From: a virus
Lineage: Duplodnaviria > Caudoviricetes
Virus record (IMG/VR): IMGVR_UViG_2767802108_000001
Coordinates: 1-64,000 of that record
Reading direction: 5' to 3' (one strand)
DNA: 64,000 nt
Shown here: positions 3,369-29,692 of the stretch, piece after piece
Layout of the letters: each line of letters opens with the position of its first letter
Numbering within the stretch: position 1 is the stretch's first letter
Translations under genes and position numbers: made by a program
The notes under the pieces: model-generated
The model's input: the letters and a program-made list of their open reading frames with translations, nothing else
The model's database searches: none
Told to the model about the DNA's origin: nothing

Positions 3369-3448
3369 CAGCCCAGGCCGGACTCGAACCGGCGACCTCG
3401 GAGTCACAAAGACGGCCGTACCGCGCTCTGCCGCTGAGCTACCGAGCT
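3369..3448 (-). tRNA. tRNA-like gene with atypical enlarged anticodon arm (identity uncertain)
   Basis: Acceptor AGCTCGG/CTGGGCT, D-arm TAGCTCAGCGGCAGAGC, T-arm GCCGG-TTCGAGT-CCGGC; anticodon region about 8 nt too long; no encoded CCA. Confidence 0.75.
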
Positions 3449-3457
3449 GCTCCACCC

Positions 3458-3480
3458 AGCATGGCACGCGCCACTGACAA
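3458..3480 (-). promoter_or_regulatory. RecA-NDp/PafBC-type DNA-damage promoter for the tRNA-like gene
   Basis: TTGTCAGTG-N8-CATGCT on the minus strand, ~10 nt upstream of the tRNA 5' end. Confidence 0.6.
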
Positions 3481-3497: not shown

Positions 3498-4271
3498 TCA
3501 GCCCTGCCGCAGCACGTAGTTCGCGAGCAACTGCCGCAGACCCGGCAGATCGAAGTCCTTCGAGAACTTCCCCGGCTCCGTGAAGTTGTAGGCCACCGGA
3601 CCCGTCGTCTCCTCCACCGTGGGCCAGGGCAGGCCACGGTTCGGGGAGCACATGACGGGCTTCAGCCAGTCCTTGGCGACGCATTCGCCGGCTTCCACGG
3701 TGCCGTCCCTGTCGATGTCGGTGTTGGGGTGGTCGAGGCCGAGGATGTGCCCGAGTTCGTGTGTGGAGGCGTCCTTGCGGCGGGCTTCGTTCACGGCCGG
3801 GTCGGGGCCGAACCAGGTGGGGATGGTCCAGTACTCGGAGTCCATGAGGATGTGCCCGCCCCACGCGGAGCCGTTGCCGGTGGCGTAGCAGGGGCGGGCT
3901 TGGGACATGCCGGGCTGGCCGAGGGGCTGGTGCAGGTAGTGGACGACGATGCGGTGCCGGGGCGGGCACGTGCCGAGCGGTGTGAGGTCGAGGGTGGTGG
4001 TGACGGTGATGGGGACGCCGACGGACCGGGTGACCTGCGCGGCCGGCAGCAGGAAGTACTTCGCGAGCCTGGTGCGGGCGGTGGTGTCGGCGAACACGAT
4101 CTCGTACGGGTCTGGGCTGAGGCTGTAGATGCCTTCGGTGGTGAGGGCTTTCCAGCCGGTGCCGCTGTAGACGGGGCTGGTGAGGGTGGCGGCGGTGAGA
4201 GCGAGGACGCCGCCGAGGGCTCCGAGGAGTGTGGTGAGGGCACGGACGGTTCGGGAGGGTTTGCGAGGCAT
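3498..4271 (-). CDS. Secreted metzincin (M10/matrixin-like) zinc metallopeptidase
   Basis: N-terminal signal/TM segment; HELGHILGLDH zinc motif; PVMC Met-turn. Confidence 0.85.
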   Translation of the reverse strand: MPRKPSRTVRALTTLLGALGGVLALTAATLTSPVYSGTGWKALTTEGIYSLSPDPYEIVFADTTARTRLAKYFLLPAAQVTRSVGVPITVTTTLDLTPLGTCPPRHRIVVHYLHQPLGQPGMSQARPCYATGNGSAWGGHILMDSEYWTIPTWFGPDPAVNEARRKDASTHELGHILGLDHPNTDIDRDGTVEAGECVAKDWLKPVMCSPNRGLPWPTVEETTGPVAYNFTEPGKFSKDFDLPGLRQLLANYVLRQG

Positions 4272-4322
4272 GCCCTTCAGTCTGGGCACGAAACCGGCAC
4301 CCGTTCCCACCGCTCGATAGGG

Positions 4323-4736: not shown

Positions 4737-5146
4737 GGCTTCAGTCCTTCCGTCTCATAGGCCAGGTTGAGGACGGCGCGGAGCCGGGCCCGCTCGATGT
4801 ACGTGTTGGCTTCGCCTTCCTCGTCGGCGAGGGCCTTCACGCGGTCCAGGACGGCGAGGAGTTGGTCGCGGGGGGGTTTCCGGTACGGCTCCCACCAGTC
4901 GGGCGGCTCCACCAGGAGCGGCGTCGTGCGGCATTCGATGGCTACGCCGTCGCCGCGTTCGTTGACGTGCTTGCGGCCCTGGGCGTCTTTGGCGCACGCC
5001 TCGTAGACGATGACGCGGGTGCCGTCGCTGGCGGTGTCGAGGTAGACGTCGGCGTCCAGGAGGACATCACCGGGGTCAATGTGGTTGGCGGTGAGCCAGG
5101 CGCAGTAGGCCTCACGGCGCTCGCTGTAGTCCTTGTGGCTGGGCAT
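4733..5146 (-). CDS. Hypothetical protein
   Basis: Translationally coupled ORF, high GC3. Confidence 0.65.
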   Translation of the reverse strand: MPSHKDYSERREAYCAWLTANHIDPGDVLLDADVYLDTASDGTRVIVYEACAKDAQGRKHVNERGDGVAIECRTTPLLVEPPDWWEPYRKPPRDQLLAVLDRVKALADEEGEANTYIERARLRAVLNLAYETEGLKP

Positions 5147-5547
5147 CAGACGCCGTCCCGTTGGATTCGGGTGATGCGGTCCATCTCGCGGGTGACGTCG
5201 CCGATCTCCTGGTTGCCGAGGTAGACGCTGGCACTGAAGCGGTCCTCTGTGTCGGTCAGCGCGACCTGCGGATACCGCAGCTTCTCGCCCCGTTCGTTAC
5301 GGCTGACGGTCCCGTCCAGAGGGCGCGGCCGTTGCGTACCGAGGGATTCGGGGACGCCGCTGAAGGTGATGAGGTGGGGGCCAGCCTCGATGCAGATGTT
5401 GAGCGGGGCGGTGACGACGATGCGGCCCTTGTAGAGGGCGACGGGGTCGGTGCCGATGTAGGCGACGGTGTCTCCGACGTGGAGGGGGCGTCCGCTGTAG
5501 TCGACGGCGAGTGGCGTGGGTGTGGTGGTGGCCTGGGAAGGGGTCAT
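5146..5547 (-). CDS. Hypothetical protein
   Basis: ATG 5547; coupled to the next gene. Confidence 0.6.
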   Translation of the reverse strand: MTPSQATTTPTPLAVDYSGRPLHVGDTVAYIGTDPVALYKGRIVVTAPLNICIEAGPHLITFSGVPESLGTQRPRPLDGTVSRNERGEKLRYPQVALTDTEDRFSASVYLGNQEIGDVTREMDRITRIQRDGV

Positions 5548-5649
5548 GCGTCTACGGTCGCGCGGTTCGGGCCGACCGTTCCCCCTGCACGACAAGGCCC
5601 GGCAGCGTTGGGGGCGTGCTGCCGGGCCGGTCTACCGTGCGGTGGGGGG

Positions 5650-5883
5650 TCAGCCCCACCACGTGTCTGCGGGACGCGCCGTGGTCCCGCCGGGGGCCGG
5701 GTCGGCGGGCTGGAGACCCCACCACGTGTCATCCGTGCCGTCGGTGCCGGGCGTTGCGGGTTCGGTGACGGTCGGGGTGCCGGTGGTGTCGTCGGCGGCC
5801 GCCGCACCGGCCATGGTGAGGCTGCCGCCGGCGAGTGCCGCGGTGAGGAACAGGGCGGCGGTGAGTCGCTTGAGTGGCTTCAC
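5650..5883 (-). CDS. Secreted 77-aa propeptide with two DTWWG repeats (putative signalling peptide precursor)
   Basis: AGAAAGG RBS plus GTG; Sec signal KPLKR-hydrophobic-AAAA; internal DDTWWG and C-terminal ADTWWG. Confidence 0.8.
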   Translation of the reverse strand: MKPLKRLTAALFLTAALAGGSLTMAGAAAADDTTGTPTVTEPATPGTDGTDDTWWGLQPADPAPGGTTARPADTWWG

Positions 5884-6162
5884 GGTGGGGCCTTTCTGTA
5901 ATGGTGCCGGAACGTGTAGTGGGGCGCCTGGCCCGAATTCTCGCTGCTGTCCATCCTGCTGCGAATCCCTTTGTCTCAAACGGCTGTTACCTGGCAGTAG
6001 TCGTTTGGGGTGTGGGGAGGATGTTGGCTACGAGCGTCGGGGGACGCCCCACGGCCACTGTGTCGTACGCTGGTTGGGTCTTCCAGGGTTTGATCGTGCG
6101 GGTGTTCGCAGTGCAGGAAGACGCAATCGATCACGGGGATTTCAGCGGGGGATACGAGACCT

Positions 6163-7263
6163 TTGGCCATAACCAGTGCGCACGGTAGCGGTCGGGAATT
6201 GTCGGCGGAGGCCCTGCGGCTTTTCGGCGCCTGCGCCATACGGGATATCGAACAAGTCGAGCGGATCACTACCGCGCACCCCACTGCGCAGACCGAACTG
6301 CTGGACTGGGGGCTGATCACCCTCGAGGACCAGCCCGGCGGCGTCCCCGGAGTCCGGGACCCGAAGCAGGCCGTGCAGCAGCGGACGGCCGAGCTGTTCG
6401 CCGAAGCCGAGGCCCGCGTCGCACTGCTCCGGCAGCTCCCGGACATTGCCTCCCAGCTGTCCCAGCACTACGAAGCCGTACAGCTCCGCGTGGCGGGCTG
6501 CGCGTCCGTGTACCTGGACAGTGGCGAGGCCGCGAACGCACGGTTGCAGGACGTGGTGGGTGGGGCGCAGCGGGAGATCCTCGCCGCGCAGCCCGGCGGG
6601 CCCCGCGACCAGGCCCTGCTGGACAAGGCGATGCCGCGGGACTCGGCTGCTCTGGACCGCGGCGTGGTCCTGCGGACCGTGTACCGGGACACGGTGCGGG
6701 ACCATGCTCCGACGGCCGGCTACGTGCAGGCGATGACGAACCGCGGGCCGGGCCGGTCGGCGCAGTACCGGACCCTGCCGGGCAAGTTCGAACGGATGAT
6801 CATCGTGGATAGGGAGGCTGCGGTCGTCCCCGACTACATCGTCGCCGAATCACCGCCGCACGCCGCGTGGCTGATCACTGATCCTGCCGCGGTCGCCGTG
6901 CTGGCTCGCGCTTTCGAGCAGACGTGGATGCGGGCGGAACCCTGGGTGGGGGATCTTCGTACCCGCGGGGATGCCCGGGACACGGTGGGGTCGGCGGCTT
7001 CCGCGATGGTGGGGGTGCGGACGACGCGCCGTCAGCGGGAGATCATGCGGAACCTGTGTACGCCTGCGTCGCATTCCACGATCGCCCGCCGGTTCGGGGT
7101 GTCGGATCGGAAGTTCGCCGACGAGGTTGCCGCGTTGAAGGCGTTGTGGGGGGTGTCGACGATGAACGAGTTGATCTATCAGTGGGCGTTGTCGGTGGAC
7201 AACAAGGCAGACGACAGCGCCCCCACCGGGCCGGTGGGGGCGGAGTACGAGCAGACAGCCTGA
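6163..7263 (+). CDS. TrmB-like/PLD-fold sensor with C-terminal LuxR HTH transcriptional regulator
   Basis: AQPGGPR, RGVVLRTVY, RMIIVDREAAVV, FEQTWMRAEPW core; TRRQREIM...IARRFGVSDRK LuxR HTH. Confidence 0.85.
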   Translation: MAITSAHGSGRELSAEALRLFGACAIRDIEQVERITTAHPTAQTELLDWGLITLEDQPGGVPGVRDPKQAVQQRTAELFAEAEARVALLRQLPDIASQLSQHYEAVQLRVAGCASVYLDSGEAANARLQDVVGGAQREILAAQPGGPRDQALLDKAMPRDSAALDRGVVLRTVYRDTVRDHAPTAGYVQAMTNRGPGRSAQYRTLPGKFERMIIVDREAAVVPDYIVAESPPHAAWLITDPAAVAVLARAFEQTWMRAEPWVGDLRTRGDARDTVGSAASAMVGVRTTRRQREIMRNLCTPASHSTIARRFGVSDRKFADEVAALKALWGVSTMNELIYQWALSVDNKADDSAPTGPVGAEYEQTA

Positions 7264-7267
7264 CCGG

Positions 7268-7663
7268 TCAGTGCAGCCCCCAGAACGGCTTGAAGCAGGA
7301 GTCCATGCACGCCTTGCCGTCATGCGGGAGCCTCACGCCCTCAGCCGTCTCCGTGTCACCTTGGATGTCGTCGTAGTCGAATCGGGTGAGGGCCCGCCAG
7401 TACCATTCGCCTTTCCTGGTGAGCCAGGCGCCGTCGATGGTCGACCCGTGTTCGATGAGGCCGGCGTTGTCCAGGAGTCCGAGGATCAGATAGCGGGCGC
7501 CGTCGTGGGGGAGCAGCGTGCGTACGGCGTCCTTGGTACGGAACGCGGTCAGGATGTCGCGGACCAGGTCGTAGGAGTCTTCGGGAAACCCGCAGCACAG
7601 GTTGAGATCCTCGTAGATGAGCTTGTAGACGTGGTCGCGGACGTGTTCGGCGGTGATGGTCAC
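7268..7663 (-). CDS. Hypothetical protein (winged-helix-like)
   Basis: LDNAGLIEHGSTIDGAWLTRKG. Confidence 0.65.
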   Translation of the reverse strand: MTITAEHVRDHVYKLIYEDLNLCCGFPEDSYDLVRDILTAFRTKDAVRTLLPHDGARYLILGLLDNAGLIEHGSTIDGAWLTRKGEWYWRALTRFDYDDIQGDTETAEGVRLPHDGKACMDSCFKPFWGLH

Positions 7664-18429: not shown

Positions 18430-19161
18430 CTACTCCTGAGGCCGAAGAGACGTGGTCCAACGCAAGATCGTCGAACCCTGGGCAACCTTCACAGCCACCT
18501 CAACGATCCGACCATCCTCCAGCGTCACTGTACGAACCACCTGCGTCACAACGACCTCGCCCGCGGTCAGCCCGAGGGCCTCCTTCTCCGCGGCCGTGGC
18601 GTGCCGACTGGTGACCTCCTCCAGCACCTGATCCTGGGCCACGCCCAGCCGTGACGCTGCAAGCTCCCGCGACGCGCCGGTAGACACCGGCTCCGTCAGC
18701 TCGGGAGTCACCGCGATCACATAGGCCGGGTAGTAGCTGCTGCTCAGGTGGATCGGGAGACCGTTCCGGCTGACCACTCGCCGGCGTACCTGAACCGGCG
18801 TGCCAGGGGCCACGTCGAGCCGTGACGCCACCAGTTCGTCGGCGCCGGTGGTTCCGACCTCCAGGATTCGCGACTCCTCACCGCCATCGAGAGCGCTACC
18901 GGTAGCCGCGTGCAAAGCCAGGCGGGTGCCGATGTTGTTGCTGACGGGGCTGGATACGACTGTCCCCACTCCAACCTTGGAGTGCGTCAGCCCTTCCATC
19001 TTGAGGACCCGGTAGGCGCGGTTCACGGTCGTGTGCGCCACGCCGAACTGCTCGCTAGCCGCCTTGAAGCTCGGCAGGGTGTCGCCGGGCCTCAGCGTCC
19101 CGTCGCGGATCTGCCGACGGAAGTGCTGAGCGATCTCCGCGTATCCGGGGGTGTCGCGCAT
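18430..19161 (-). CDS. GntR/HutC-family repressor with UTRA domain (KorA/KorSA/TraR-like)
   Basis: YAEIAQHFRRQIRDGTLRPGDTLPS...TVNRAYRVLKMEGL; divergent from the transfer operon. Confidence 0.92.
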   Translation of the reverse strand: MRDTPGYAEIAQHFRRQIRDGTLRPGDTLPSFKAASEQFGVAHTTVNRAYRVLKMEGLTHSKVGVGTVVSSPVSNNIGTRLALHAATGSALDGGEESRILEVGTTGADELVASRLDVAPGTPVQVRRRVVSRNGLPIHLSSSYYPAYVIAVTPELTEPVSTGASRELAASRLGVAQDQVLEEVTSRHATAAEKEALGLTAGEVVVTQVVRTVTLEDGRIVEVAVKVAQGSTILRWTTSLRPQE

Positions 19162-19241
19162 GGTCGACCTCCTCTCTCTGTCGTTAGCTGCCGCGCTCGT
19201 GGAGTACGGCGGTACACCCCTGAGGTTAGCCGAAAGAAACC

Positions 19242-19284
19242 CCGAGCGCGAGTACTAGCGCTCGGAGCGCGAGGACGCTACATT
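19242..19284 (+). promoter_or_regulatory. Palindromic operator and -10 for the transfer operon
   Basis: CCGAGCGC-gagtacta-GCGCTCGG (19242-19265); TACATT 19279-19284. Confidence 0.55.
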
Positions 19285-19408
19285 GGGTGTCGTCGGGAAG
19301 AACGGAACCCCGGAAACGCCAAAACGGCCTGGGTGGTTGCACACCCAGGCCGTCCAGGGGCCCCGTAGGACCCGGCACTCGCTACCCGCCAAACCAGGAG
19401 CGACTGCC

Positions 19409-19573
19409 ATGCAGAACCGTATCCGACCGGTACAGCACTCCACCACGAGCACCACGCAGGCCGACGAGGCTCTGCACCGCGTCCGCGTCAGCAAGCCGTC
19501 CACCGAGCCGCTTCCGACCGCCGGCCTCGCCGCGCTGAAGCGCCTGGAGCAGGCCCTCAAGGCGGTGGCGTGA
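19409..19573 (+). CDS. Small hypothetical protein
   Basis: AGGAG RBS; coupled to the next gene. Confidence 0.55.
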   Translation: MQNRIRPVQHSTTSTTQADEALHRVRVSKPSTEPLPTAGLAALKRLEQALKAVA

Positions 19574-19950
19574 TGAACCGCGAGAACCCCAACGAGAACG
19601 ACCTGCGTCTCCTCGCGTTCATGGAGCAGATCCTCAACCTGTCCGACGACACCAACACCGCAGGACGGATCATCCTCCTCGGCCCGACCGGCGAGGTCGC
19701 CGCCGACGCCTCCCTGTCCGCCCGCGACCTTGAGATCGCGACGAAGGCACTGGCCGCCGCACGGGCGTTCACGGAGGCCACCAAGGGCCTCGACTTCCCG
19801 GCCGACGCCGCCCTGGACCCGGTCCTGGAGCAGGACCTGGAGGAGCACTGCATCGGCCTCGACACGGACTTCCTCATGCAGCTCGCCGCCGAGGACCCGC
19901 GTAGGGCAGTTGCCGCGTTCGACGAGATCACCGAAGAGGGCGAGCTGTGA
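19570..19950 (+). CDS. Hypothetical acidic protein
   Basis: High-GC3 ORF in operon. Confidence 0.7.
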   Translation: MMNRENPNENDLRLLAFMEQILNLSDDTNTAGRIILLGPTGEVAADASLSARDLEIATKALAAARAFTEATKGLDFPADAALDPVLEQDLEEHCIGLDTDFLMQLAAEDPRRAVAAFDEITEEGEL

Positions 19951-20336
19951 TGCACGTCCACACCGGCGACAACGCCGTCCCCCCGATCCACGGCACCGAC
20001 CTCGGCGACACCCTCGAAGACCTCGAAAGCGTCCACGCCGGCATCGATTTGATCCGCGACGGCCTGCGCCTCCTCGCCCTGAGTCGGCACGACCTCAACC
20101 AGACGCAGGTACTCCTCGCCACCCTCGTCGGCTCCCCGGACAGCACCGACGTCCTCGGCGCCCTCGCCCACCTCATCGCCCGCCTCACGAACCCCGATTC
20201 GAACCCCTGCCTGCGCAGCCTGCCCCTCGACCAGCAGAAGGAGGCCACCCACCAGGGCTGGCTGACCGCCCACCACCTCACCGACCCCGACCTCCGCACC
20301 AGCACCTCAACCGCCTGCGCCGCACTCGACCAGTAA
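19947..20336 (+). CDS. Hypothetical protein
   Basis: Coupled ORF. Confidence 0.7.
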   Translation: MMHVHTGDNAVPPIHGTDLGDTLEDLESVHAGIDLIRDGLRLLALSRHDLNQTQVLLATLVGSPDSTDVLGALAHLIARLTNPDSNPCLRSLPLDQQKEATHQGWLTAHHLTDPDLRTSTSTACAALDQ

Positions 20337-20348
20337 GGACCCCACACC

Positions 20349-20576
20349 ATGCGACTCCTCACCCGCCGCCGCCCGCCCCGCTACACCCCTGAGCAGCGCG
20401 CCCGCCTTGCCCGCCAGTACGACGGTCTCGCCCGTCACGACGACAAGGTCGCCCGCCAGCTCGAAGACCTCGGCCGCGCTGACGAAGCCGCCATCCACCG
20501 CCGCACCGCCGCCGAGTGGCGCGACCGGGCGGAAGCCGCCCGCACCAGCAGCCGCGCCCTCGAACTCCTCACCTGA
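20349..20576 (+). CDS. Hypothetical helical protein
   Basis: TAAGGA RBS. Confidence 0.65.
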   Translation: MRLLTRRRPPRYTPEQRARLARQYDGLARHDDKVARQLEDLGRADEAAIHRRTAAEWRDRAEAARTSSRALELLT

Positions 20577-20630
20577 CCCTCCAACCACAGGACCGAACCT
20601 CCTCGACCACCAGCTCAGAAGGGACCCGGC

Positions 20631-20825
20631 ATGAGCCTCCGCAACGAACTCCGCAAGATCGCCTCCTTCCACACCGAACAGGCCAACCACCTCGAACGCA
20701 GCAGCAGCGAGGACGCCCTCTACAGCGAGAGGGAGGAGACCACGCGCCGAGCCGACCGAGCCAACGCCATCACCAGTCACCGCCAGAGGGCAGCAGCCCT
20801 AAATGCCGAAGCCGACCAGATCTGA
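20631..20825 (+). CDS. Hypothetical helical protein
   Basis: GAAGGGA RBS. Confidence 0.65.
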   Translation: MSLRNELRKIASFHTEQANHLERSSSEDALYSEREETTRRADRANAITSHRQRAAALNAEADQI

Positions 20826-20982
20826 CCCTCCGACCGGGGTCCGGCCCCCGACACCCCCCGCGGGGACCGGACCCCCACCCTCTGGCCCTGCCGGAGGCCG
20901 TACCGCTGACAACCCCCACAGCGGTACGGCGCCCAGCACGACCAGCGACCACCCGCCCGAACCAGCACCGGAAGGAACCGCA

Positions 20983-21189
20983 GTGAACAAGCCCACCGGC
21001 ACCCAGATCTTCATCTGGGCCACCGCGATCGCGGTCACCGCCCGCATCGTCTGGACCATCACCCATCACAACGTCCCCATCTCGGCCACCATCACGATCA
21101 CCATCTCCGTGCTCTACGCGATGAAGGCCAGCGCGGAGAACATCGCCCGCATCGTCGCCGAGGCCCGACGCCAGGGAGTCACCCGATGA
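20983..21189 (+). CDS. Small membrane protein
   Basis: GAAGGAA RBS plus GTG; two hydrophobic segments. Confidence 0.6.
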   Translation: MNKPTGTQIFIWATAIAVTARIVWTITHHNVPISATITITISVLYAMKASAENIARIVAEARRQGVTR

Positions 21190-21803
21190 CCGGCCCCGAG
21201 TTCCCCCTCACCCGGCAGCAGGCACTCCTCCTCACCGCCCACCACGAAGCCGCCCACGCCGTCATCGCCCACCACAAGGGAATCCAGCTCATCTCCCTCC
21301 ACCTCGACAACACCGGCGACGCGGACACCTGGCACGTCGGCGGAATCACCCACGTCATCTACCACCCGTCCCTTGCCGCCCAGTTCGCCACTCAAGGAGC
21401 AGCAGGCGAGATCGCAGCCCTGAAGTGGCTCGACGACCACGGCCTGCGAACCCCCGCCACCGAAGACCTCGCCAACGCCGACCACGACCGTGACGACGTC
21501 CTCAGCCTCACCGCGAAGGACGGAATCCGCATCGACTGGTCCGCCGCGCAGCACCGTGCCCAAACCCTGGTCCGGTCGCTGTGGCCGCAGATCAGTGCCG
21601 TCGCCCACGCCGCCGCAGAGTCGGGCGACCTGACCAGTGCACAGGTGATCGAGCTGATCACGACCCGCAGCGCTCTCGGCTTCCGTCAGCAGCACGGCGC
21701 TCTGGAGTCCTGGACAACCGCCGACTTCGAAACCGAGATCAACCTCGCCGAGATCGACGCCCTCACCCCCACCGACCCGGACAACCTCACCACCGCCGCC
21801 TGA
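21186..21803 (+). CDS. Stand-alone M41/FtsH-like HEXXH peptidase domain
   Basis: TAHHEAAHAVIA, AAGEIA, D..D, W..I.AVA.A...G.L. Confidence 0.75.
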   Translation: MTGPEFPLTRQQALLLTAHHEAAHAVIAHHKGIQLISLHLDNTGDADTWHVGGITHVIYHPSLAAQFATQGAAGEIAALKWLDDHGLRTPATEDLANADHDRDDVLSLTAKDGIRIDWSAAQHRAQTLVRSLWPQISAVAHAAAESGDLTSAQVIELITTRSALGFRQQHGALESWTTADFETEINLAEIDALTPTDPDNLTTAA

Positions 21804-21824
21804 ACCCCGGAAGGACCACCGCCC

Positions 21825-22043
21825 ATGGCCACCACCGACCAGCTCATCGACCAGGCCCTCAACGCCCTCAACCCGAAGACCGGCTTCCACGAGCCCAACC
21901 CGCAACAGGCCCACGAAGCCACCGCCCGCGCGAACATCGCCATCGCCTCCGCCCTCACCCGCATCGCCAGCGCCCTCGAACAGATCGCCCACAACCACAA
22001 CGCCGACAACACCGTCCAGCCGGCCATCCACCACACCGCCTGA
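21825..22043 (+). CDS. Hypothetical protein
   Basis: GAAGGA RBS. Confidence 0.6.
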   Translation: MATTDQLIDQALNALNPKTGFHEPNPQQAHEATARANIAIASALTRIASALEQIAHNHNADNTVQPAIHHTA

Positions 22044-22082
22044 ACAACCGCCCCCACCCACACCCGGAAGGAACCGATCACC

Positions 22083-22982
22083 GTGACCACCGCCGCCCGG
22101 CCGTCCGCCAGAACGATCGGCATCATCGACCGAGCCCTCGGCACCATCGCCTGGGCCTCCCAACTTGGTGTAGCCGTTCTCTACCTGGCCATCACCGCTC
22201 AGCCGGCCGTGTGGCGTCCCATGCTCGACAATGACCCGGTCCCCGCCATCTCCGCCTGGGGATTCGTCATCGGCATGACGCTCATCTGGATGAGTAGCCT
22301 CCACCAAGAACAGGTCTGGTTCTACAACCGCCGCGTACGACGCAACCACCGCAAGACCTGGGCCGTTGGCCACGTCAGCGTCCTGTTCTTTGCGGCTTTG
22401 TCCGCCTCCGCGCACGATGAGCGAATCGGCATGTGGATCATCCTCGGTATGGGGACGCTGATCTCCCTCATGACCTGGTCCGCCTGGATGCGCACCAAGG
22501 AGCTACCCGCCGAGGATCAGGCCGTCATCGACGCCATCCACGACCGCGAGACACAGGAGGCCGCAGCCGCCTTCGACGTCAGTGAGAAGGAACACCGCCG
22601 CAACCGCCTGAACGCCATCGTGACCAGCCTCGGCTATCAACTCACCGACACCCTCACCCCGTCCACCGTGCAGGACGAACAGGCGGACAATCGCTGGCAG
22701 ATCCCGGTCCGCAAGCACGCACCCCTGGTCTACTTCATCCGCAACGGCAACCGCATCAAGATCGGCACCACCACCGACCTGAAGCGCCGTATCCGCACCC
22801 TCGCGCTCCGCGCAGAGAACGTCGCCCTCCTTCTGGACGGCGGCAAGCCCCTTGAGCGGAAGCACCACCATCAGTTCGCCGACCTGCGCATCGGCAACAC
22901 CGAATGGTTCGCCTACGAAGGCGCCCTCGTCGACTTCATCGCCGACCAGAACCGACTCGCCCGAAAGGAAGAGGCCAAGTGA
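22083..22982 (+). CDS. Multi-TM membrane protein fused to a GIY-YIG (T5orf172-like) domain
   Basis: Four hydrophobic helices, then VYFIRNGNRIKIGTT...ER..H..F...RI..TEWF. Confidence 0.8.
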   Translation: MTTAARPSARTIGIIDRALGTIAWASQLGVAVLYLAITAQPAVWRPMLDNDPVPAISAWGFVIGMTLIWMSSLHQEQVWFYNRRVRRNHRKTWAVGHVSVLFFAALSASAHDERIGMWIILGMGTLISLMTWSAWMRTKELPAEDQAVIDAIHDRETQEAAAAFDVSEKEHRRNRLNAIVTSLGYQLTDTLTPSTVQDEQADNRWQIPVRKHAPLVYFIRNGNRIKIGTTTDLKRRIRTLALRAENVALLLDGGKPLERKHHHQFADLRIGNTEWFAYEGALVDFIADQNRLARKEEAK

Positions 22983-23887
22983 ACACCACCACCGCCAAGA
23001 CGTCGCCCCTCATCAAGCTCGCCGCCCTCCTGTCCTTCGGCTCCCTCATCTGGACGACGTGGAGCCTGTTCGACCTCCTCGGAGCCGGCCCCGCCGGAAT
23101 CACCGTCGCCGCATGCGCCGACGCCGTCTGGGGATCCGTCATCTACGCCGAATACCGCAGCGTCCGCCTCGCCGGCCGCAGGTGGCCCGTCGCCCTCTTC
23201 GGATGGGCCGCCCTCCTCGCCGTCTCCGTCTTCCTCGTCTGGCACGGCCTCGCCGACAACAACCTCGCCATGGCCTACGCCGGCCCCTTCCTCCCCCTCG
23301 GAGCCAAGGTCGTCTGGGCACTGGCGCTTGCCGACATGCGCGACCCCGCCGCACTCACCGACGCAGAGAAGGCCACCCTCGCCGAGATGGAGCGCGGCCT
23401 CGTCTTCGAAGAGGCACAGCACGCCGCGGAGATGCGGCGCCGCACGATGCGCGCCGAACTTCTCATCGCAGAAGTGTCCACGGACTTCGACATCGAGGTG
23501 ACGCGGCAGGACCGGGCACGGGAGCTTCAGAGGCGCCGCCCGCTCGAGCTGACCGTCGCATCGGAGACCGTGGAGCGCACTGAAGCGGTCGGTGAAACCG
23601 CAGATCAGGCCGATGAAGCGCCGCAGTCGCGCGTGTCACTTGCTTCCGCTGAGACGCCCCGCATCATCCGTGAGGCGCCCCTGCTGCGCGACAGTGAGGC
23701 GCTCCCGCTTCAGGGCGTGTCGAAGGCTGAAGCGGTCCGTATCGTCCGTGCGGCGGACCCCGGCGCTTCAGCGCCGCAGATCGTGAAGCGCCTCGCGCAG
23801 CAGGGAATCGAAGCGGACGCTGGATACGTCCGCACCGTCTTGGCCCGTAGTAAGCAGCGCAACATTACCGACGGGGGCTACCTGTGA
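22979..23887 (+). CDS. SpdB-like plasmid spread/transfer membrane protein with C-terminal HTH
   Basis: Four TM helices, coiled coil, SKAEAVR...YVRTVL HTH. Confidence 0.7.
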   Translation: MNTTTAKTSPLIKLAALLSFGSLIWTTWSLFDLLGAGPAGITVAACADAVWGSVIYAEYRSVRLAGRRWPVALFGWAALLAVSVFLVWHGLADNNLAMAYAGPFLPLGAKVVWALALADMRDPAALTDAEKATLAEMERGLVFEEAQHAAEMRRRTMRAELLIAEVSTDFDIEVTRQDRARELQRRRPLELTVASETVERTEAVGETADQADEAPQSRVSLASAETPRIIREAPLLRDSEALPLQGVSKAEAVRIVRAADPGASAPQIVKRLAQQGIEADAGYVRTVLARSKQRNITDGGYL

Positions 23888-24080
23888 GCCCGCGTCACAC
23901 GATCACGGAGCCGCGGACGGGCACCCCGTCCGCAGCCCCCCGCCGGGCCACCCCGCTGGCGCCCGCCGTCCAGCCCGTTATCACCGCCCCGGGTTGGCCG
24001 TCCCGCTGGCACCTGATCACCCCCGCCAAGGCCCGCAACACCGCCGCCGCCCTCAGCAGCATGGAAAGGAAGTGAAGGAG

Positions 24081-26294
24081 GTGAGCGCCGACACGATTAC
24101 CTCGATCAACCCCGGCAACCCCGGCCCCGCACCCATCACACTGGGTGACAGTACGGGCGGCGGGGCGGGGCGGGGCGGAAGCCAGGACAGCCCCCAGGGC
24201 CCCCTCGTGGTCGTCCAGCAGCCCCGCAACCCTTCCCCGCCCCGCCCCGCCCCCACCGCAAACCGAAACAACACCGACAACACACTCCGAAACGGATACG
24301 CCGCAATCTCACACAGCGTGAGCGGCGAAACCGCGGCCATCGGCATCGGATTCCTCACCGCCGGCCCCGTCGGCGCCATCATCGGCGGCGCCACCCTGCC
24401 CGTCCTCGTCGCCGCCTCCATGTGGCGGGCCCGCCGCCGCGAACACGACGACAACACCAACAACAACTCCACCAGCAACGACTCCGACGGCTCGAAGTCC
24501 GGCCGTGACCGGTCCGGCTCCGGTGGTGGAAGCGGCCGTGGTCGCGGCAACGGATCTGGCGGGGGAGGAGGCGGCCACCGGACGCCCAACGGTTCCGGTG
24601 GCGGCGGCCGTCACAAGACGCCGAAGAGCCCCGGCTCCGGCAAGGGCCCCGGCACCGGCAACAGCGGCCTGGGCGGTGGCGGGAAAAACCGCAAGCCGAA
24701 GGTGAAGGACCCGGTCGCCGACAAGCTGGCCAAGACGGGCAAGGGCCTCGCCGACAAGCTCAAGAACCGCGGCGACAAGACTGGCAAGGGAATGAAGGAC
24801 GGCCTTGTCGACGGATCCAAGGCCCTGAAGAACGATGCGAAGAAGCTGAAGGACAAGCTCGGCCGTAGGAAGAACGGCAAGGGCGGTGACACCACGTGGA
24901 CGTCCTCGCCCGACGGGCTCGACCCGAAGGTCAAGAAGGACAAGAAGAACCGCGACCGCAAGGGCAAGGGCAAGGGCGTCGGCAACGACGTTGCGTCTTC
25001 GACCGCTCGAGACGGCCTGGACCCGAAGGGGCCCAAGGACGGCCACGGTGACAACCTGCCGCCGAAGCCCGATCACGACCCGGACGAGTACATCGACGCC
25101 GAAATCGTCGACGACGGCCTGCCCCCCAAGCCGACCCACGCCCCCGACGACGTCATCGACGGCGAAGTCATCGACGAAGACCGCATCGCCCTCGTCAAAG
25201 CCCGCCGGGAAAAGCAGGCCCGCCGCCAGGCCATCACCGCCGGCAAGAAAGCCGAGAAGGACGCCGCCCGCGACGGCACCATGGGCGACCCCATCAAGGT
25301 CAAGGCCGAACGGATCCGCTGGGAGAACCAGCGGATCGACTACGAGTTGAACAGAGCCGAACAGCTGCTCGCGCTCGCGGCATCCACGGAACAGCGAAGG
25401 AGCACCCCCGTGACCTACCCCGTACCCGTCATCCAGGCCGCAGGCACCCGCACGGCTGGCGTCGCGGTAGCCCGGCAGATCGACGTCCGCGGCGCTCTCA
25501 CCTACCGGCTCCTGGTCGCCATGGCCGAACAGCTCGCCAACGGACTCCACAACGACGCCGACGCCGACATGGCCGACCACGTCGTGGAACTCGTCGGGAT
25601 CCCCGCCATGTGCCGCAACCTCGCCCTCGCCGTCCGTGAAGCCGCGAACGCCCTCCAGAAGACCGCACCGCTCCACCCGTCCGTCATCAAGCACCTCAAC
25701 AACGCCGCCGTGTCCGCACTAACCGCCGCCCGCATGGCCGACACAATCCTCGCCGTGTTCGTCCAGGCCCACCGCGCCGACATCTACCGCGTCATGGAGC
25801 CCCGCCTCGGCGAGGAGCGGTGGAACATCCGCAATGCCGCCGGAACCCTCGACGCAGCCAAGCTCCGCGCCGCGATCCTGTCCGCCGGCCAGCAGCGCCT
25901 CGCCCTCCCCGGCGGCAGCAGCACCAACACGTCCAGCCCGGCCGGGAAACTCGTCCCCGCCTCCGGGGAGAGCACCAAGAAGCTCATCAACGTCATGAAG
26001 GGCTTCGACCGCGGCCACATGGTCACCTGCCTGTCCGAAGTCGCCGGCACCGCCCGCGGTATCGACATCGTCGCCGACGCCATCAACAAGCTGTACCGGC
26101 GCATGGCCAACACCTGGCCCACCGAGAACGTCGTCGACGACACCGTCCGGGCCACCGCCTCCAAGGTCAAGAACATCTCCGCGGAACTCCACAAGGCCAT
26201 CAAGGCCGCCCAGCGCGCCCACGCCCGCGAACTGAAGCTCAACGCCAAGCCCCGGAAGGGCGCCAACGCCGAGAAGAAGTGGGACGTCGTCTGA
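24081..26294 (+). CDS. Large transfer-associated protein (TM, Gly/Lys-rich region, two helical repeats)
   Basis: AAGGAG plus GTG; TGATG-coupled to traB. Confidence 0.7.
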   Translation: MSADTITSINPGNPGPAPITLGDSTGGGAGRGGSQDSPQGPLVVVQQPRNPSPPRPAPTANRNNTDNTLRNGYAAISHSVSGETAAIGIGFLTAGPVGAIIGGATLPVLVAASMWRARRREHDDNTNNNSTSNDSDGSKSGRDRSGSGGGSGRGRGNGSGGGGGGHRTPNGSGGGGRHKTPKSPGSGKGPGTGNSGLGGGGKNRKPKVKDPVADKLAKTGKGLADKLKNRGDKTGKGMKDGLVDGSKALKNDAKKLKDKLGRRKNGKGGDTTWTSSPDGLDPKVKKDKKNRDRKGKGKGVGNDVASSTARDGLDPKGPKDGHGDNLPPKPDHDPDEYIDAEIVDDGLPPKPTHAPDDVIDGEVIDEDRIALVKARREKQARRQAITAGKKAEKDAARDGTMGDPIKVKAERIRWENQRIDYELNRAEQLLALAASTEQRRSTPVTYPVPVIQAAGTRTAGVAVARQIDVRGALTYRLLVAMAEQLANGLHNDADADMADHVVELVGIPAMCRNLALAVREAANALQKTAPLHPSVIKHLNNAAVSALTAARMADTILAVFVQAHRADIYRVMEPRLGEERWNIRNAAGTLDAAKLRAAILSAGQQRLALPGGSSTNTSSPAGKLVPASGESTKKLINVMKGFDRGHMVTCLSEVAGTARGIDIVADAINKLYRRMANTWPTENVVDDTVRATASKVKNISAELHKAIKAAQRAHARELKLNAKPRKGANAEKKWDVV

Positions 26295-28480: not shown

Positions 28481-28586
28481 GGTGATCGACGGTCTGAAGA
28501 AGGCCGGCCTGAGCGAGAACTCAGCCGTCCGTTTCGCGGCGATCTACTTCAACGAGATGTCGCAGAACGACACGGACGACGACTGA
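28413..28586 (+). CDS. Small hypothetical protein
   Basis: GAGG RBS; LKKAGLSENSAVRFAA motif; overlaps the traB 3' end. Confidence 0.55.
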   Translation: MQPDEFPDLKMTHMDQAMLHMAEVIDGLKKAGLSENSAVRFAAIYFNEMSQNDTDDD

Positions 28587-28602
28587 ACCAACCAGCGACC
28601 AG

Positions 28603-28633
28603 GAAAACCCCCGGGTCGTACCCGGGGGTTTTC
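28603..28633 (+). terminator. Rho-independent terminator
   Basis: GAAAACCCCCGGG-tcgta-CCCGGGGGTTTTC. Confidence 0.85.
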
Positions 28634-28682
28634 TGTATCCACCGCCACCCTCACCACCCGCCGCCCCGAAGGACACCCACCG

Positions 28683-29213
28683 ATGAACGCCCCCCTGACA
28701 GGCCCGACCCAGCCCACCGCCCCACCCGCCGCGCAGCCTGTCGACGACCAGCGCATCGACCGCATCGCCAACGCTTTCAGCCAGGCCCTCGACCAAGCCA
28801 CCGCCACCCCCACCGCCTTCCGAGACGAGACGCCCGTGCCCGCCATCGGCAACGCCCTCCCGGTACCCCAACCCGGCCGCACCCCGATGTCACAGCGGGC
28901 CACCGACGCCAGCGTCCTCATCCTTTCCGCTGGCGCCGCCTCCATCCCCCTCGGCGGCATGACCGCCCTCATCATCTACGCCCTCGGCAACGCCGACCCC
29001 GTATCCCTCGCCGTCGGCGCCGGCGCCCCCATCACACTCGCCGTGCCGATCCTCGCCCTCACCCGACTCGTACGACGAGCCAAGGAGACCGTCCAGGCCG
29101 CCCCGCCCGTCATCCACCAGCACTACACCGGCACCGTCGTCCAGGACCAGCGGACCGTGAACACCACCACCCGCGGCATGTGGGCATCCACCCGCAACCA
29201 GCTGCCCAAGTAG
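28683..29213 (+). CDS. Spd-like membrane protein
   Basis: PVPQPGR.PMSQRATDAS, two TMs, HQHYTGTVVQDQR tail. Confidence 0.7.
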   Translation: MNAPLTGPTQPTAPPAAQPVDDQRIDRIANAFSQALDQATATPTAFRDETPVPAIGNALPVPQPGRTPMSQRATDASVLILSAGAASIPLGGMTALIIYALGNADPVSLAVGAGAPITLAVPILALTRLVRRAKETVQAAPPVIHQHYTGTVVQDQRTVNTTTRGMWASTRNQLPK

Positions 29214-29224
29214 AGGAGATCCCC

Positions 29225-29692
29225 GTGACCGCCACTGTCATCGCCGTCCTCGGCACCCTCGCCGGAACCCTCCTCACCGGCACCCTCGCCCACCTCAGCC
29301 AGCGAGCCCAACGCAAAGCCGACACCACCACCGCCCGTCGGACCGAAGCCCTGACCGCCGTCACCGACCTCGCCACCGCACTCGCCGACCACCGCCGCGC
29401 CATGTGGGTCCGCGAAGACCTCCGCTTACACGGCGAGGACTGGGACCAGGCCCGTACCGAGTCCCACACCACCCGGTCCGCAATCACCGCCCCGCTGCTG
29501 CGCGTGCAACTGCTACTGCCCGCACTCGCCCCGACCGCGCAGGACGCCGCCCACGCCACCTACGCCCTCCGCGACGGCTGGGAGACCGGCGAGACCGGAC
29601 TCGCATCCCGACGCGATCACGCCATCACCAAGACCGACGACCTCGTCACGGCCGCTGGCCGGCTCCTCGACGGTCAGCCCGCACGACGGTAA
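29225..29692 (+). CDS. kilB: KilB-like protein
   Basis: VIAVLGTLAGTLL N-terminal TM and helical body resembling pIJ101-type KilB; contains a TTA codon. Confidence 0.65.
   Translation: MTATVIAVLGTLAGTLLTGTLAHLSQRAQRKADTTTARRTEALTAVTDLATALADHRRAMWVREDLRLHGEDWDQARTESHTTRSAITAPLLRVQLLLPALAPTAQDAAHATYALRDGWETGETGLASRRDHAITKTDDLVTAAGRLLDGQPARR

What the first reader, a model, noticed from the sequence alone, without database searches (positions are those of the whole stretch)
5650..7263. Putative arbitrium-analogous peptide communication module: secreted DTWWG-repeat peptide and divergent TrmB/LuxR receptor
Seen: a 77-aa ORF (5883-5650, RBS AGAAAGG) has a Sec signal peptide (KPLKR, hydrophobic core, AAAA), acidic Pro/Thr spacers and two copies of [D/A]DTWWG, the second ending exactly at the stop. 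It sits head-to-head with a 366-aa regulator that has a PLD-like/TrmB-type sensor fold and a LuxR HTH, the only rightward gene in this leftward early block. Known: Bacillus phage arbitrium uses a secreted propeptide with a C-terminal hexapeptide (AimP) and an RRNPP/TPR receptor (AimR). Inference: this Streptomyces phage may count infections or control lysis, lysogeny or transfer with a hexapeptide and a structurally unrelated (non-TPR) receptor. No RiPP-modifying enzyme is nearby, which favours a signal over an antibiotic.
Basis: partly seen in the sequence, partly recalled or inferred. Interest (0 to 1): 0.9.

Follow-up and report, generated by a model that had tools for sequence, protein, structure and literature searches.

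The report
Phage-plasmid secreted DTWWG peptide and regulator
A Streptomyces phage-plasmid carries a tiny gene for an exported peptide with two DTWWG units, back-to-back with an unusual regulator, and this pair recurs and co-diversifies widely enough to be a strong but untested candidate for peptide cell-to-cell signalling in a phylum known for small-molecule signals.

Summary
Window 5650-5883(-) encodes a 77-aa precursor: RBS, signal-like N-terminus, DTWWG twice, the second at the stop. It lies head-to-head with a 366-aa regulator (6163-7263) that has a TrmB/TrmBL2-like PLD fold and a C-terminal LuxR-type HTH.

The element is a pZL12-like plasmid-phage of about 89 kb.

- **Linkage.** The pair occurs in 11 of 13 orthologous elements, 10 of 10 IMG/VR contigs, pSAM1 and temperate phage Chymera, where it sits beside integrase and repressor. 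pZL12 lacks both genes.
- **Peptide family.** Of 108 peptide relatives, 103 end exactly in D[TSP]xWG, and 94 have identical copies.
- **Chromosomal loci.** In Kitasatospora-type loci, 37 of 45 regulators have a secreted D-x-x-W-x peptide beside them. The two-gene cassette is hypervariable between conserved flanks and co-diversifies: the regulator is 29% divergent when peptides differ, against 2.4% when they are the same, with DnaJ under 3% divergent.
- **Weaker point.** Inside the phage-plasmid clade, co-variation is weak (G/A flips).

Best reading (about 0.55): a Phr/arbitrium-like propeptide with a non-TPR cytoplasmic receptor. Binding, secretion, expression and the phage decision it would control are all untested.

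I found no paper describing it. This scan has already noted the same module on eight other windows.

The parts
5650..5883 (-). Propeptide gene (77 aa, GTG start; stop at 5650-5652)
   Evidence: GC3 0.86. Homologues found in 108 protein clusters.
5891..5897 (-). Ribosome-binding site AGAAAGG, 7 nt before the GTG
   Evidence: The same AGAAAGG(A) motif lies at the same spacing in relatives.
5794..5883 (-). Signal-peptide-like N-terminus (residues 1-30: KPLKR, hydrophobic core, AAAA before DD)
   Evidence: Read from the sequence and conserved in the family alignment. No predictor was run.
5716..5730 (-). First DTWWG unit (residues 52-56)
5653..5667 (-). Second DTWWG unit (residues 73-77), directly followed by the stop
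   Evidence: D73, T74, W76 and G77 are invariant in 15 relatives.
5884..6162 (.). Divergent intergenic control region. Conserved anchors keep a 202-211 nt spacing in 16 of 20 elements, even where the regulators are only about 40% identical.
5965..6019 (+). Conserved hairpin with apical loop CCTGGCAG and co-varying arms (candidate leader RNA or DNA element)
   Evidence: Cognate arm duplexes average -24.9 kcal/mol against -18.5 for non-cognate. Mean z is -2.9 on the + strand and -2.3 on the - strand.
6032..6050 (.). Nearly invariant GC-rich palindrome GAGCGTCGGGGGACGCCCC
   Evidence: Found once in the window.
6096..6125 (.). Tandem pair of TGC-N8/9-GCA sites (GTGCRGGN4CGCA twice), 38 nt upstream of the regulator start; candidate operator
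   Evidence: The only exact matches in the window; the TGC...GCA ends are invariant in 15 elements.
6163..7263 (+). Regulator, 366 aa (TTG start)
6205..6357 (+). N-terminal winged-helix-like region (residues about 15-65)
   Evidence: AF2 secondary structure; Foldseek alignment to TrmB/TrmBL2.
6496..6948 (+). PLD-like (TrmB effector-domain-like) candidate sensor domain, residues about 112-262. Preceded by a long helix at residues 67-106.
   Evidence: Pfam Regulator_TrmB matches 8 of 29 relatives and DUF7436 matches 5 of 29.
7021..7206 (+). C-terminal LuxR/GerE-type helix-turn-helix (residues about 287-348)
5146..5595 (-). 149-aa gene of unknown function, next in the leftward gene string after the peptide gene
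   Evidence: no family found. Conserved at this place in 4 relatives.
3498..4310 (-). Secreted metzincin-type zinc protease (HELGHILGLDH) in the same leftward gene string; candidate but dispensable maturation protease
   Evidence: weak M10/M12/serralysin hits. Present in the fetched flank of 6 of 13 module-bearing elements and absent from pZL12 and Chymera.

Best explanation
The pair is a cognate peptide-signal and receptor cassette carried by a pZL12-like plasmid-phage. The 77-aa precursor would be exported through its signal peptide and cut outside the cell, by host proteases or by the co-transcribed metzincin, to release two copies of a short peptide built on D-T-W-W(-G). The peptide would re-enter through an oligopeptide permease and bind the PLD-like domain of the cytoplasmic TrmB-fold/LuxR-HTH regulator. 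That would change the regulator's binding to the conserved sites in the 279-bp divergent intergenic region, and so its control of its own gene and of the leftward gene string headed by the peptide gene. What is shown here: the gene structures, the regulator fold, the conserved linkage, the conservation and homogenisation of the peptide unit, and cassette-level co-diversification. What is inferred: export, processing, uptake, binding, the sign of regulation and the biological output (plasmid-prophage versus lytic or transfer decision).
For: (1) Linkage in both directions. The peptide gene lies divergently upstream of the regulator in 11 of 13 orthologous loci, 10 of 10 IMG/VR loci, pSAM1 and temperate phage Chymera, where gp30 (DPGWG twice) and gp29 sit beside the integrase and immunity repressor. 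pZL12, whose capsid protein is 65.6% identical, lacks both genes. In the reverse test, an exact DTGWG-stop pattern searched in 401 genomes gave 11 sites against 0 for the control. Five are real small peptide genes, and four of those have the regulator adjacent.

(2) Propeptide hallmarks. 103 of 108 relatives end exactly in D[TSP]xWG, each with 2-4 copies separated by variable spacers. 94 of 108 have identical copies, against a shuffle mean of 32.6 and maximum of 46. In the chromosomal set, 15 of 16 multi-copy precursors have identical copies, across three different pentapeptides.

(3) Pherotype-like evolution. In 33 Kitasatospora-type loci, regulator distance correlates with peptide distance (r 0.56) and not with DnaJ distance (0.20). 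The partial r is 0.56, reached in 0 of 2000 permutations. Both flanking genes stay conserved and track DnaJ. Among strain pairs with DnaJ under 3% divergent, the regulator is 2.4% divergent when peptides match (19 pairs) and 28.9% when they differ (9 pairs).

(4) The regulator is cytoplasmic, with a domain of the TrmB effector-domain fold plus DNA-binding domains.

(5) The window's genome holds a second module with a different peptide, DSTWG.
Against: - No direct evidence exists for expression, secretion, processing, uptake or binding.
- Within the phage-plasmid clade the variable residue flips between G and A among near-identical regulators, and only 5 regulator positions are specific to the W type. 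There is therefore no clean receptor-peptide co-variation in this clade.
- Cassette-level co-variation in the chromosomal loci could arise from block replacement of two adjacent genes without any physical interaction. Divergence between alleles is spread over the whole regulator rather than concentrated in the PLD-like domain.
- The domain resembles TrmBL2, a non-ligand-binding relative, and lacks TrmB's C-terminal sugar-binding subdomain.
- Most distant paralogues have no such peptide within 1.5 kb: 21 of 26 loci in the class-level sample.
- One genome (G255) carries two modules with the same DTGWG unit.
- One clear DTGWG precursor (L090) has no regulator within 7 kb.
- Some chromosomal peptide genes sit beside L-amino-acid-ligase-type ATP-grasp, TauD and MFS genes.
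Confidence: 0.55

Rival explanations
1. Regulated secreted effector. The regulator controls the peptide gene, but the exported DTWWG-repeat product acts outside the cell and never feeds back on the regulator. It could, for example, be a ligand of a host surface protein or PDZ-type protease that reads free C-termini, a superinfection-exclusion or decoy factor, or a substrate or inhibitor of the co-operonic metzincin.
For: The divergent arrangement with a conserved intergenic region fits simple transcriptional control. A secreted metzincin lies in the same gene string in 6 of 13 elements. Co-variation is weak inside the phage-plasmid clade. A motif that must sit at the free C-terminus (103 of 108) also fits recognition by a C-terminus-binding protein. 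Multivalency (2-4 copies) could serve binding to an oligomeric target.
Against: It does not explain why the regulator itself is hypervariable and changes together with the peptide between strains whose flanking genes are nearly identical. It does not explain why the pair travels as a unit into very different contexts: phage lysogeny module, phage-plasmids, a chromosomal dnaK-operon flank, and biosynthetic-like clusters. The metzincin is absent from 7 of 13 elements, from Chymera and from the chromosomal loci inspected.
Confidence: 0.2
2. Multi-core precursor of a modified or hybrid peptide natural product. The D-x-x-W-x units would be cores that are tailored or ligated by enzymes, and the regulator would be a pathway-specific regulator.
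For: Repeated identical cores behind a leader are typical of multi-core precursors. Some chromosomal members lie beside LAL-type ATP-grasp ligases and MFS exporters (L070, L090) or TauD, MFS and an NRPS condensation-domain protein, with leaderless 24-aa ORFs ending in DTGWG (L063, L069). Recalled, not from a call: ribosomal peptides are joined by an ATP-grasp ligase in pheganomycin biosynthesis.
Against: No modifying enzyme was recognised near the peptide gene in the window, or in the annotated flanks of Chymera. The only partner conserved across contexts is the regulator. A Sec-type signal peptide in place of a leader is unusual for such precursors.
Confidence: 0.12
3. The small ORF is not a functional gene, or the adjacency is fortuitous.
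For: The ORF is short and compositionally biased (GC2 0.72). No RNA data are available.
Against: GC3 is 0.86 with a sharp drop upstream of the GTG. The RBS and start are conserved. There are 108 homologous clusters with an invariant C-terminal motif. It is annotated as a CDS in pSAM1 and Chymera. Linkage was found in both search directions. The relaxed scan gave 0 hits in 84 kb of unrelated control loci.
Confidence: 0.02

Closest known systems
Arbitrium (AimR-AimP-AimX) of Bacillus SPbeta-like phages
   Same: A mobile-element-encoded small precursor with an N-terminal export signal and the conserved short unit at the extreme C-terminus, next to a cytoplasmic DNA-binding protein. In phage Chymera the pair lies in the lysogeny region beside integrase and repressor.
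   Different: The receptor candidate has a TrmB/PLD-like fold plus a LuxR HTH, not TPR. The genes are divergent, not co-directional. There are 2-4 copies of the unit per precursor. The unit is a pentapeptide D-x-x-W-x with only 1-3 variable positions. No aimX-like output was identified. The host phylum is Actinomycetota. Function is untested.
RRNPP systems (Rap-Phr, PlcR-PapR, NprR-NprX, Rgg-SHP/ComR-XIP)
   Same: The logic of secreted propeptide, C-terminal mature oligopeptide, re-import and an intracellular receptor. Phr peptides are pentapeptides (recalled).
   Different: The defining TPR receptor fold is not present. RRNPP systems are described for Bacillota. The passage read in PMC10075063 states that Actinomycetota signals are typically enzyme-made small molecules.
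ComQXPA / agr-type pherotype loci (recalled)
   Same: A hypervariable signal-plus-receptor cassette between conserved flanks, with signal and receptor changing together between close strains.
   Different: Those systems use membrane histidine-kinase receptors and modified peptides. Here the partner is a soluble one-component regulator, and no modifying enzyme is linked in the phage-borne modules.
TrmB / TrmBL2 family regulators (archaeal sugar-sensing regulators and chromatin protein)
   Same: Winged helix, long helix and PLD-like domain architecture. These are the best Foldseek hits (5bpi E 6e-12, 3qph 1e-8, 2f5t 6e-6). Pfam Regulator_TrmB matches 8 of 29 relatives.
   Different: There is no C-terminal sugar-binding subdomain. 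A LuxR-type HTH is appended instead. The family is actinobacterial, with 2208 clusters at E<=1e-3. The ligand, if any, would be a peptide.
Gamma-butyrolactone / ArpA-type signalling in Streptomyces (recalled)
   Same: Signal-receptor cassettes that sit in different gene clusters and mobile elements of Streptomyces and control neighbouring genes.
   Different: Those signals are small molecules made by AfsA-type enzymes and sensed by TetR-family receptors. Here the candidate signal is gene-encoded.
Plasmid-phage pZL12 / plasmid pSAM1
   Same: The window's element is of this kind. The capsid protein is 65.6% identical to ZL12. It has portal, tape-measure, tail-fibre and DnaB genes, and relatives are plasmids of about 88-94 kb.
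   Different: pZL12 itself lacks the regulator and the peptide. pSAM1 has them, with DTAWG three times.

Membership tests
Arbitrium (AimR-AimP-AimX) | Propeptide with N-terminal export signal and mature peptide at the extreme C-terminus | tested here: met
   Met at sequence level only: signal-like N-terminus and DTWWG at the stop. 103 of 108 relatives end in the motif. Export and maturation were not tested.
Arbitrium (AimR-AimP-AimX) | Receptor is a TPR (RRNPP-fold) protein with an N-terminal HTH | tested here: not met
   AF2 model plus Foldseek: the best matches are TrmBL2, TrmB and PLD-family proteins, and no TPR protein is among the listed hits.
Arbitrium (AimR-AimP-AimX) | Peptide gene directly downstream of and co-directional with the receptor gene, followed by an aimX-type output | tested here: not met
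   The genes are divergent here and convergent in Kitasatospora-type loci. No aimX-like element was identified.
Arbitrium (AimR-AimP-AimX) | Peptide binding switches receptor DNA binding and biases lysis-lysogeny | not testable with these tools
TrmB family | N-terminal winged helix, dimerisation helix and PLD-like effector-domain core | tested here: met
   Foldseek hits 5bpi (E 6e-12) and 3qph (E 1e-8). Pfam Regulator_TrmB matches 8 of 29 relatives, best E 5.4e-5.
TrmB family | C-terminal sugar-binding subdomain | tested here: not met
   After residue about 262 the model has only a disordered linker and a helical HTH.
LuxR/GerE-type HTH regulators | C-terminal four-helix GerE domain | tested here: inconclusive
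   The window protein has no Pfam GerE hit at E<=0.05. 16 of 29 relatives hit GerE, best E 8.6e-5. A distant paralogue passes the cut-off at 31.9 bits. PDB profile hits to FixJ, NarL and GerE are at E 0.1-0.7. Helices at residues 289-348 fit the domain.
Multi-core RiPP / hybrid-peptide precursors | Modifying or ligating enzyme encoded next to the precursor | tested here: not met
   None was recognised among the window's neighbours. The feature is met at some chromosomal relatives, with an LAL-type ATP-grasp at L070 and L090.
pZL12-like plasmid-phages | Tailed-phage structural genes on an extrachromosomal replicon of about 90 kb | tested here: met
   Portal, capsid, tape-measure, tail-fibre and DnaB genes by PHROGs. 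The capsid protein is 65.6% identical to ZL12. Relatives are plasmids or contigs of 87-94 kb. The contig's own topology was not tested.

The most novel reading that the evidence does not exclude
Actinomycetes and their phages use a previously undescribed, gene-encoded pentapeptide language (D-x-x-W-x) that is read by a large family of TrmB-fold/LuxR one-component receptors. The cassettes diversify into private 'pherotypes'. Temperate phages and phage-plasmids carry their own alleles (DTWWG here, DTAWG on pSAM1, DPGWG in Chymera) to make arbitrium-like, density- or kin-dependent decisions on maintenance, lysis or transfer. This would be a convergent reinvention of phage communication with an unrelated receptor fold.
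Probability: 0.45. Interest if true: 0.9.

Novelty: new variant of a known kind. Interest (0 to 1): 0.8.

Why it matters
Peptide quorum sensing with intracellular receptors, and phage 'arbitrium' communication, are known only from Bacillota and only with TPR receptors. Actinomycetota are thought to signal with enzyme-made small molecules (passage read in PMC10075063).

If this module works as proposed, it would have several consequences:
- It would add a new receptor class and a new phylum to peptide signalling.
- It would give Streptomyces phages and phage-plasmids a communication system.
- It would offer orthogonal peptide-regulator pairs for engineering antibiotic producers.

It is directly testable in tractable systems: S. 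ambofaciens pSAM1, and phage Chymera on S. venezuelae. The signals are five-residue, unmodified, synthesisable peptides.

Tried and rejected
- **Near-identical phage DNA.** No match in the phage collection.
- **Family scans of the two proteins.** Pfam and NCBIfam gave only a weak DUF7436 hit for the regulator and a weak WGxxGxxG_fam hit (E 0.027) for the peptide. I treat the latter as a signal-peptide artefact.
- **RNA evidence.** No RNA holder was listed, and read laying was not used.
- **pZL12 paper.** Zhong et al. 2010 is not held. I know it only from the passages and reference list of PMC4487206.
- **pSAM1 expression.** I read passages of PMC11302927. pSAM1 genes are strongly expressed in HT medium and almost no virion reads map to it. 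The per-gene heat map is in a supplement that I could not see, and it may bear on expression of the peptide gene.
- **Rfam on 5000-7500.** No match at E<=1.
- **Promoter scan.** No sigma-70-like site was found. The one terminator-like hit overlaps the peptide start and RBS, and I reject it as chance.
- **Operator-like motifs elsewhere in the window.** Not enriched: 9 matches against 8.3 expected, with the only exact ones in the intergenic region.
- **Specificity positions in the regulator for the W type.** Five positions (43, 54, 63, 155, 277), too few and too scattered to interpret.
- **Divergence by domain.** Divergence between chromosomal alleles is not concentrated in the PLD-like domain.
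- **RNAalifold on the MAFFT alignment.** It predicted mostly invariant pairs, with covariation term +0.18. The co-varying hairpin emerged only from single-sequence folds and the arm-swap test.
- **Literature.** Eight paper runs found no paper on these motifs, on a TrmB/LuxR peptide receptor, or on arbitrium-like systems in Streptomyces. Subscription journals are largely outside that library.
- **Hexapeptide reading.** Rejected, because the residue before D is not conserved.
Full report
**What is there.** The window is bases 1-64000 of contig C24 of a 7.65-Mb, 282-contig Streptomyces-type genome.

The minus-strand ORF 5650-5883 starts at a GTG, 7 nt after AGAAAGG. It encodes 77 residues:
- a basic N-terminus (KPLKR);
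- a hydrophobic stretch ending AAAA before DD;
- Pro/Thr/Asp-rich spacers;
- DTWWG at residues 52-56 and again at 73-77, directly followed by the stop.

GC3 is 0.86 inside this frame and 0.53 in the part of the longer ORF upstream of the GTG. The back-translated DTWWG-stop pattern occurs once in the genome, and its control never.

The only well-supported rightward gene between about 3.3 and 19 kb is 6163-7263. It starts at the first possible start, a TTG embedded in TTGGCCA, which is invariant in the 15 aligned elements.

**The regulator.**
- An AlphaFold2 model built on 29 relatives has mean pLDDT 79.1 and pTM 0.49.
- The model shows an N-terminal three-helix/wing unit, a 40-residue helix, an alpha/beta domain (about 112-262), a disordered linker and a C-terminal helical bundle.
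- Foldseek against the PDB puts TrmBL2 first (5bpi, E 6e-12), then TrmB (3qph, 2f5t) and PLD-family proteins such as Nuc (1byr).
- Among the 29 relatives, Pfam finds GerE in 16, Regulator_TrmB in 8 and DUF7436 in 5. The window protein itself only reaches DUF7436 at E 0.041.
- A PDB profile search gives only weak hits to FixJ, NarL and GerE over residues 271-334.

TrmB's C-terminal sugar-binding subdomain is missing.

The family is large:
- 2208 clusters at 50% identity at E<=1e-3, and 936 at 1e-10.
- 3-7 paralogues in each of the 5 other Streptomyces genomes sampled, and hits in five other actinomycete families. In all, 13 of 151 genomes match at E<=1e-12.

**The element.** PHROGs identifies a portal, major head protein, tape measure, tail fibre, DnaB helicase and thymidylate synthase. 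The capsid protein is 65.6% identical to that of plasmid-phage ZL12/pZL12, 90,435 bp.

Regulator relatives sit on contigs or plasmids of 87-94 kb. These include circular pSAM1 of S. ambofaciens at 89,658 bp, with 70% identity.

From passages read in PMC11302927, pSAM1 is predicted to hold a prophage-like sequence. It is strongly expressed in HT medium and contributes under 0.01% of virion reads. The original pZL12 paper is not held.

**Is the pairing real?** Starting from the regulator:
- A divergent small ORF with a signal-like N-terminus and 2-3 D-T-x-W-G units, the last at the stop, lies upstream in 11 of 13 orthologous loci of species-representative genomes. L014 and L017 lack it.
- The same holds in all 10 IMG/VR loci. 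Eight have D[TS]xWG, including DTHWG and DSTWG, and two have DSTWF.
- It also holds in pSAM1, as an annotated CDS with DTAWG three times.
- Temperate phage Chymera (34.7 kb) has a 31.5%-identical regulator, gp29. It is divergent from gp30, which has a signal peptide and DPGWG twice, the last at the stop. The pair lies two genes from the integrase and three from the annotated immunity repressor.
- pZL12 has neither gene.

Starting from the peptide, an exact DTGWG-stop pattern in 401 genomes of the genus gave 11 sites in 10 genomes and 0 for the reversed control.
- Six sites lie in other genes' frames or in an ambiguous spacer.
- Five are real small peptide genes.
- Four of these have a family regulator next to them.
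- One (L090) has none within 7 kb and sits beside an L-amino-acid-ligase-type ATP-grasp gene.

**The peptide family.** A profile search found 108 protein clusters, all 'hypothetical' where named.
- 103 end exactly in D[TSP]xWG, and every one has 2-4 copies.
- In 94 of 108 all copies are identical (DTGWG, DTTWG, DTAWG, DTWWG). Dealing the motifs at random gives 32.6 on average and at most 46 in 2000 trials. Relatedness inflates this contrast.
- The residue before D varies, and internal copies are mostly followed by AP or TP.

The conserved unit is therefore the pentapeptide, not a hexapeptide.

**Wider set and co-diversification.** I relaxed the motif to D-x-x-W-x at the stop and required a signal-like stretch. 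With this, 41 of the 56 more distant chromosomal loci have such an ORF beside the regulator, against 0 in 84 kb of unrelated control loci.

In the Kitasatospora-type loci (37 of 45) the peptide gene lies just downstream of the regulator and convergent with it. It sits between hspR of the grpE-dnaJ-hspR operon and a conserved nucleoside-deoxyribosyltransferase-like gene, which is followed by a second paralogous regulator.

The terminal pentapeptides are very diverse: DSAWT, DSNWT, DTIWN, DHSWT, DVIWT, DISWT and others. In 16 precursors a second copy is present, and in 15 of these it is identical to the last one. In those I inspected, this second copy lies at or next to the predicted signal-peptide cleavage site.

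Across 33 loci:
- regulator distance correlates with peptide distance (r 0.56) but hardly with DnaJ distance (0.20);
- peptide distance is unrelated to DnaJ distance (0.03);
- the partial correlation is 0.56 and is reached by 0 of 2000 label permutations.

Both flanking genes are conserved, with mean distances 0.058 and 0.065 against 0.297 for the regulator, and they follow DnaJ. Among strain pairs with DnaJ under 3% divergent, the regulator differs by 2.4% when the peptides are the same (19 pairs) and by 28.9% when they differ (9 pairs).

This is the pattern of a hypervariable, co-inherited signal-receptor cassette. It does not prove contact, because adjacent genes replaced as a block would behave alike. 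Divergence also spreads over the whole regulator.

**Results that cut the other way.**
- Within the phage-plasmid clade, the terminal motif changes at least 8 times on a tree of 23 regulators. G/A flips occur between near-identical regulators. Only the T type is monophyletic, and pSAM1 (A type) nests among the W type.
- Only five regulator positions are W-specific.
- In the class-level sample, 21 of 26 paralogue loci show no such peptide within 1.5 kb.
- Genome G255 has two modules with the same DTGWG. The window's own genome has a second module on contig C45 with a different unit, DSTWG.
- Some chromosomal peptide genes lie beside MFS, TauD, NRPS condensation-domain or ATP-grasp ligase genes, and two lack a signal peptide. 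This keeps a natural-product reading alive for those loci.
- Co-folding was not available and no RNA run was listed.

**Control region.** The 279-bp spacer is more conserved than the proteins. Two anchors keep a 202-211 nt spacing in 16 of 20 elements, including those whose regulators are only 38-44% identical. It contains three features:
- a hairpin (5965-6019) with a conserved loop CCTGGCAG and arms that differ between elements but stay complementary. Cognate arm duplexes average -24.9 kcal/mol against -18.5 for swapped arms. The cognate arm ranks first in 6 of 14 and in the top five in all 14. Mean z is -2.9 on the + strand and -2.3 on the - strand;
- a nearly invariant palindrome at 6032-6050;
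- a tandem pair of TGC-N8/9-GCA sites at 6096-6125, 38 nt before the regulator start, unique in the window.

I read the last as the likeliest operator and the hairpin as a possible leader RNA. Neither promoter could be placed, and Rfam has no match.

**Neighbours.** The peptide gene heads a leftward string of tightly spaced genes: a 149-aa and a 137-aa protein of no known family, a DUF7352 protein, and a signal-bearing metzincin with HELGHILGLDH. The metzincin lies in the same string in 6 of 13 module-bearing elements. It is absent from pZL12 and Chymera. It may help maturation but cannot be required.

**Verdict.** The best-supported reading is a Phr/arbitrium-like propeptide whose pentapeptide is sensed by the adjacent TrmB-fold/LuxR regulator (about 0.55). 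The rivals are a regulated extracellular effector (0.2), a multi-core natural-product precursor (0.12) and a non-functional ORF or fortuitous adjacency (0.02). It is not a member of the arbitrium/RRNPP family, because the defining TPR receptor was tested for and not found, but it plausibly works like one. What the phage-plasmid decides with it is unknown.

Eight literature searches found nothing on these motifs or on such a system. The scan's own earlier notes describe the same module on eight other windows. I used them only as leads.

Noticed in passing
G000 contig C45, about 10.2-13.3 kb (loci L109-L111): The same genome holds a second module outside the window: three regulator paralogues in a row and a secreted peptide with DSTWG twice, the last at the stop. 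The host or another element therefore carries a different 'allele' from the phage-plasmid's DTWWG.
   Followed up: partly
window 5965-6019: A conserved hairpin sits in the divergent spacer, with loop CCTGGCAG and arms that co-vary between elements. It could be a leader RNA of the regulator or a DNA element. An earlier scan note on another genome also proposed a structured leader.
   Followed up: partly
L018-L062 (Kitasatospora-type chromosomal loci): A hypervariable regulator-plus-peptide cassette is inserted between hspR of the dnaK operon and a conserved nucleoside-deoxyribosyltransferase-like gene. It is followed by a second, also hypervariable, paralogous regulator.
   Followed up: partly
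L131 (G021 chromosome), 3586-3918: This precursor has at least six DSTWx units whose fifth residue differs between copies (S, V, A, T, V, T). That hints that the invariant core may be the tetrapeptide D-x-x-W.
   Followed up: no
L070, L090, L063, L069: Chromosomal DTGWG peptide genes lie beside LAL-type ATP-grasp ligase and MFS genes, or beside TauD, MFS and NRPS condensation-domain genes. In L063 and L069 the ORF is a leaderless 24-mer.
   Followed up: partly
L085 (G255 chromosome), about 1330-1520: This peptide gene carries a frameshift between its two DTGWG units. It could be a sequencing error or a decaying copy.
   Followed up: no
window 3498-4310: A secreted metzincin lies in the peptide gene's operon-like string. 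It is conserved there in 6 of 13 elements, and its closest sequence hits to serralysins and matrixins are very weak.
   Followed up: partly
window 18430-29692 and 3369-3480: First-reader notes on this window mention a TraB-type conjugation module and a tRNA-like element. I did not examine either.
   Followed up: no
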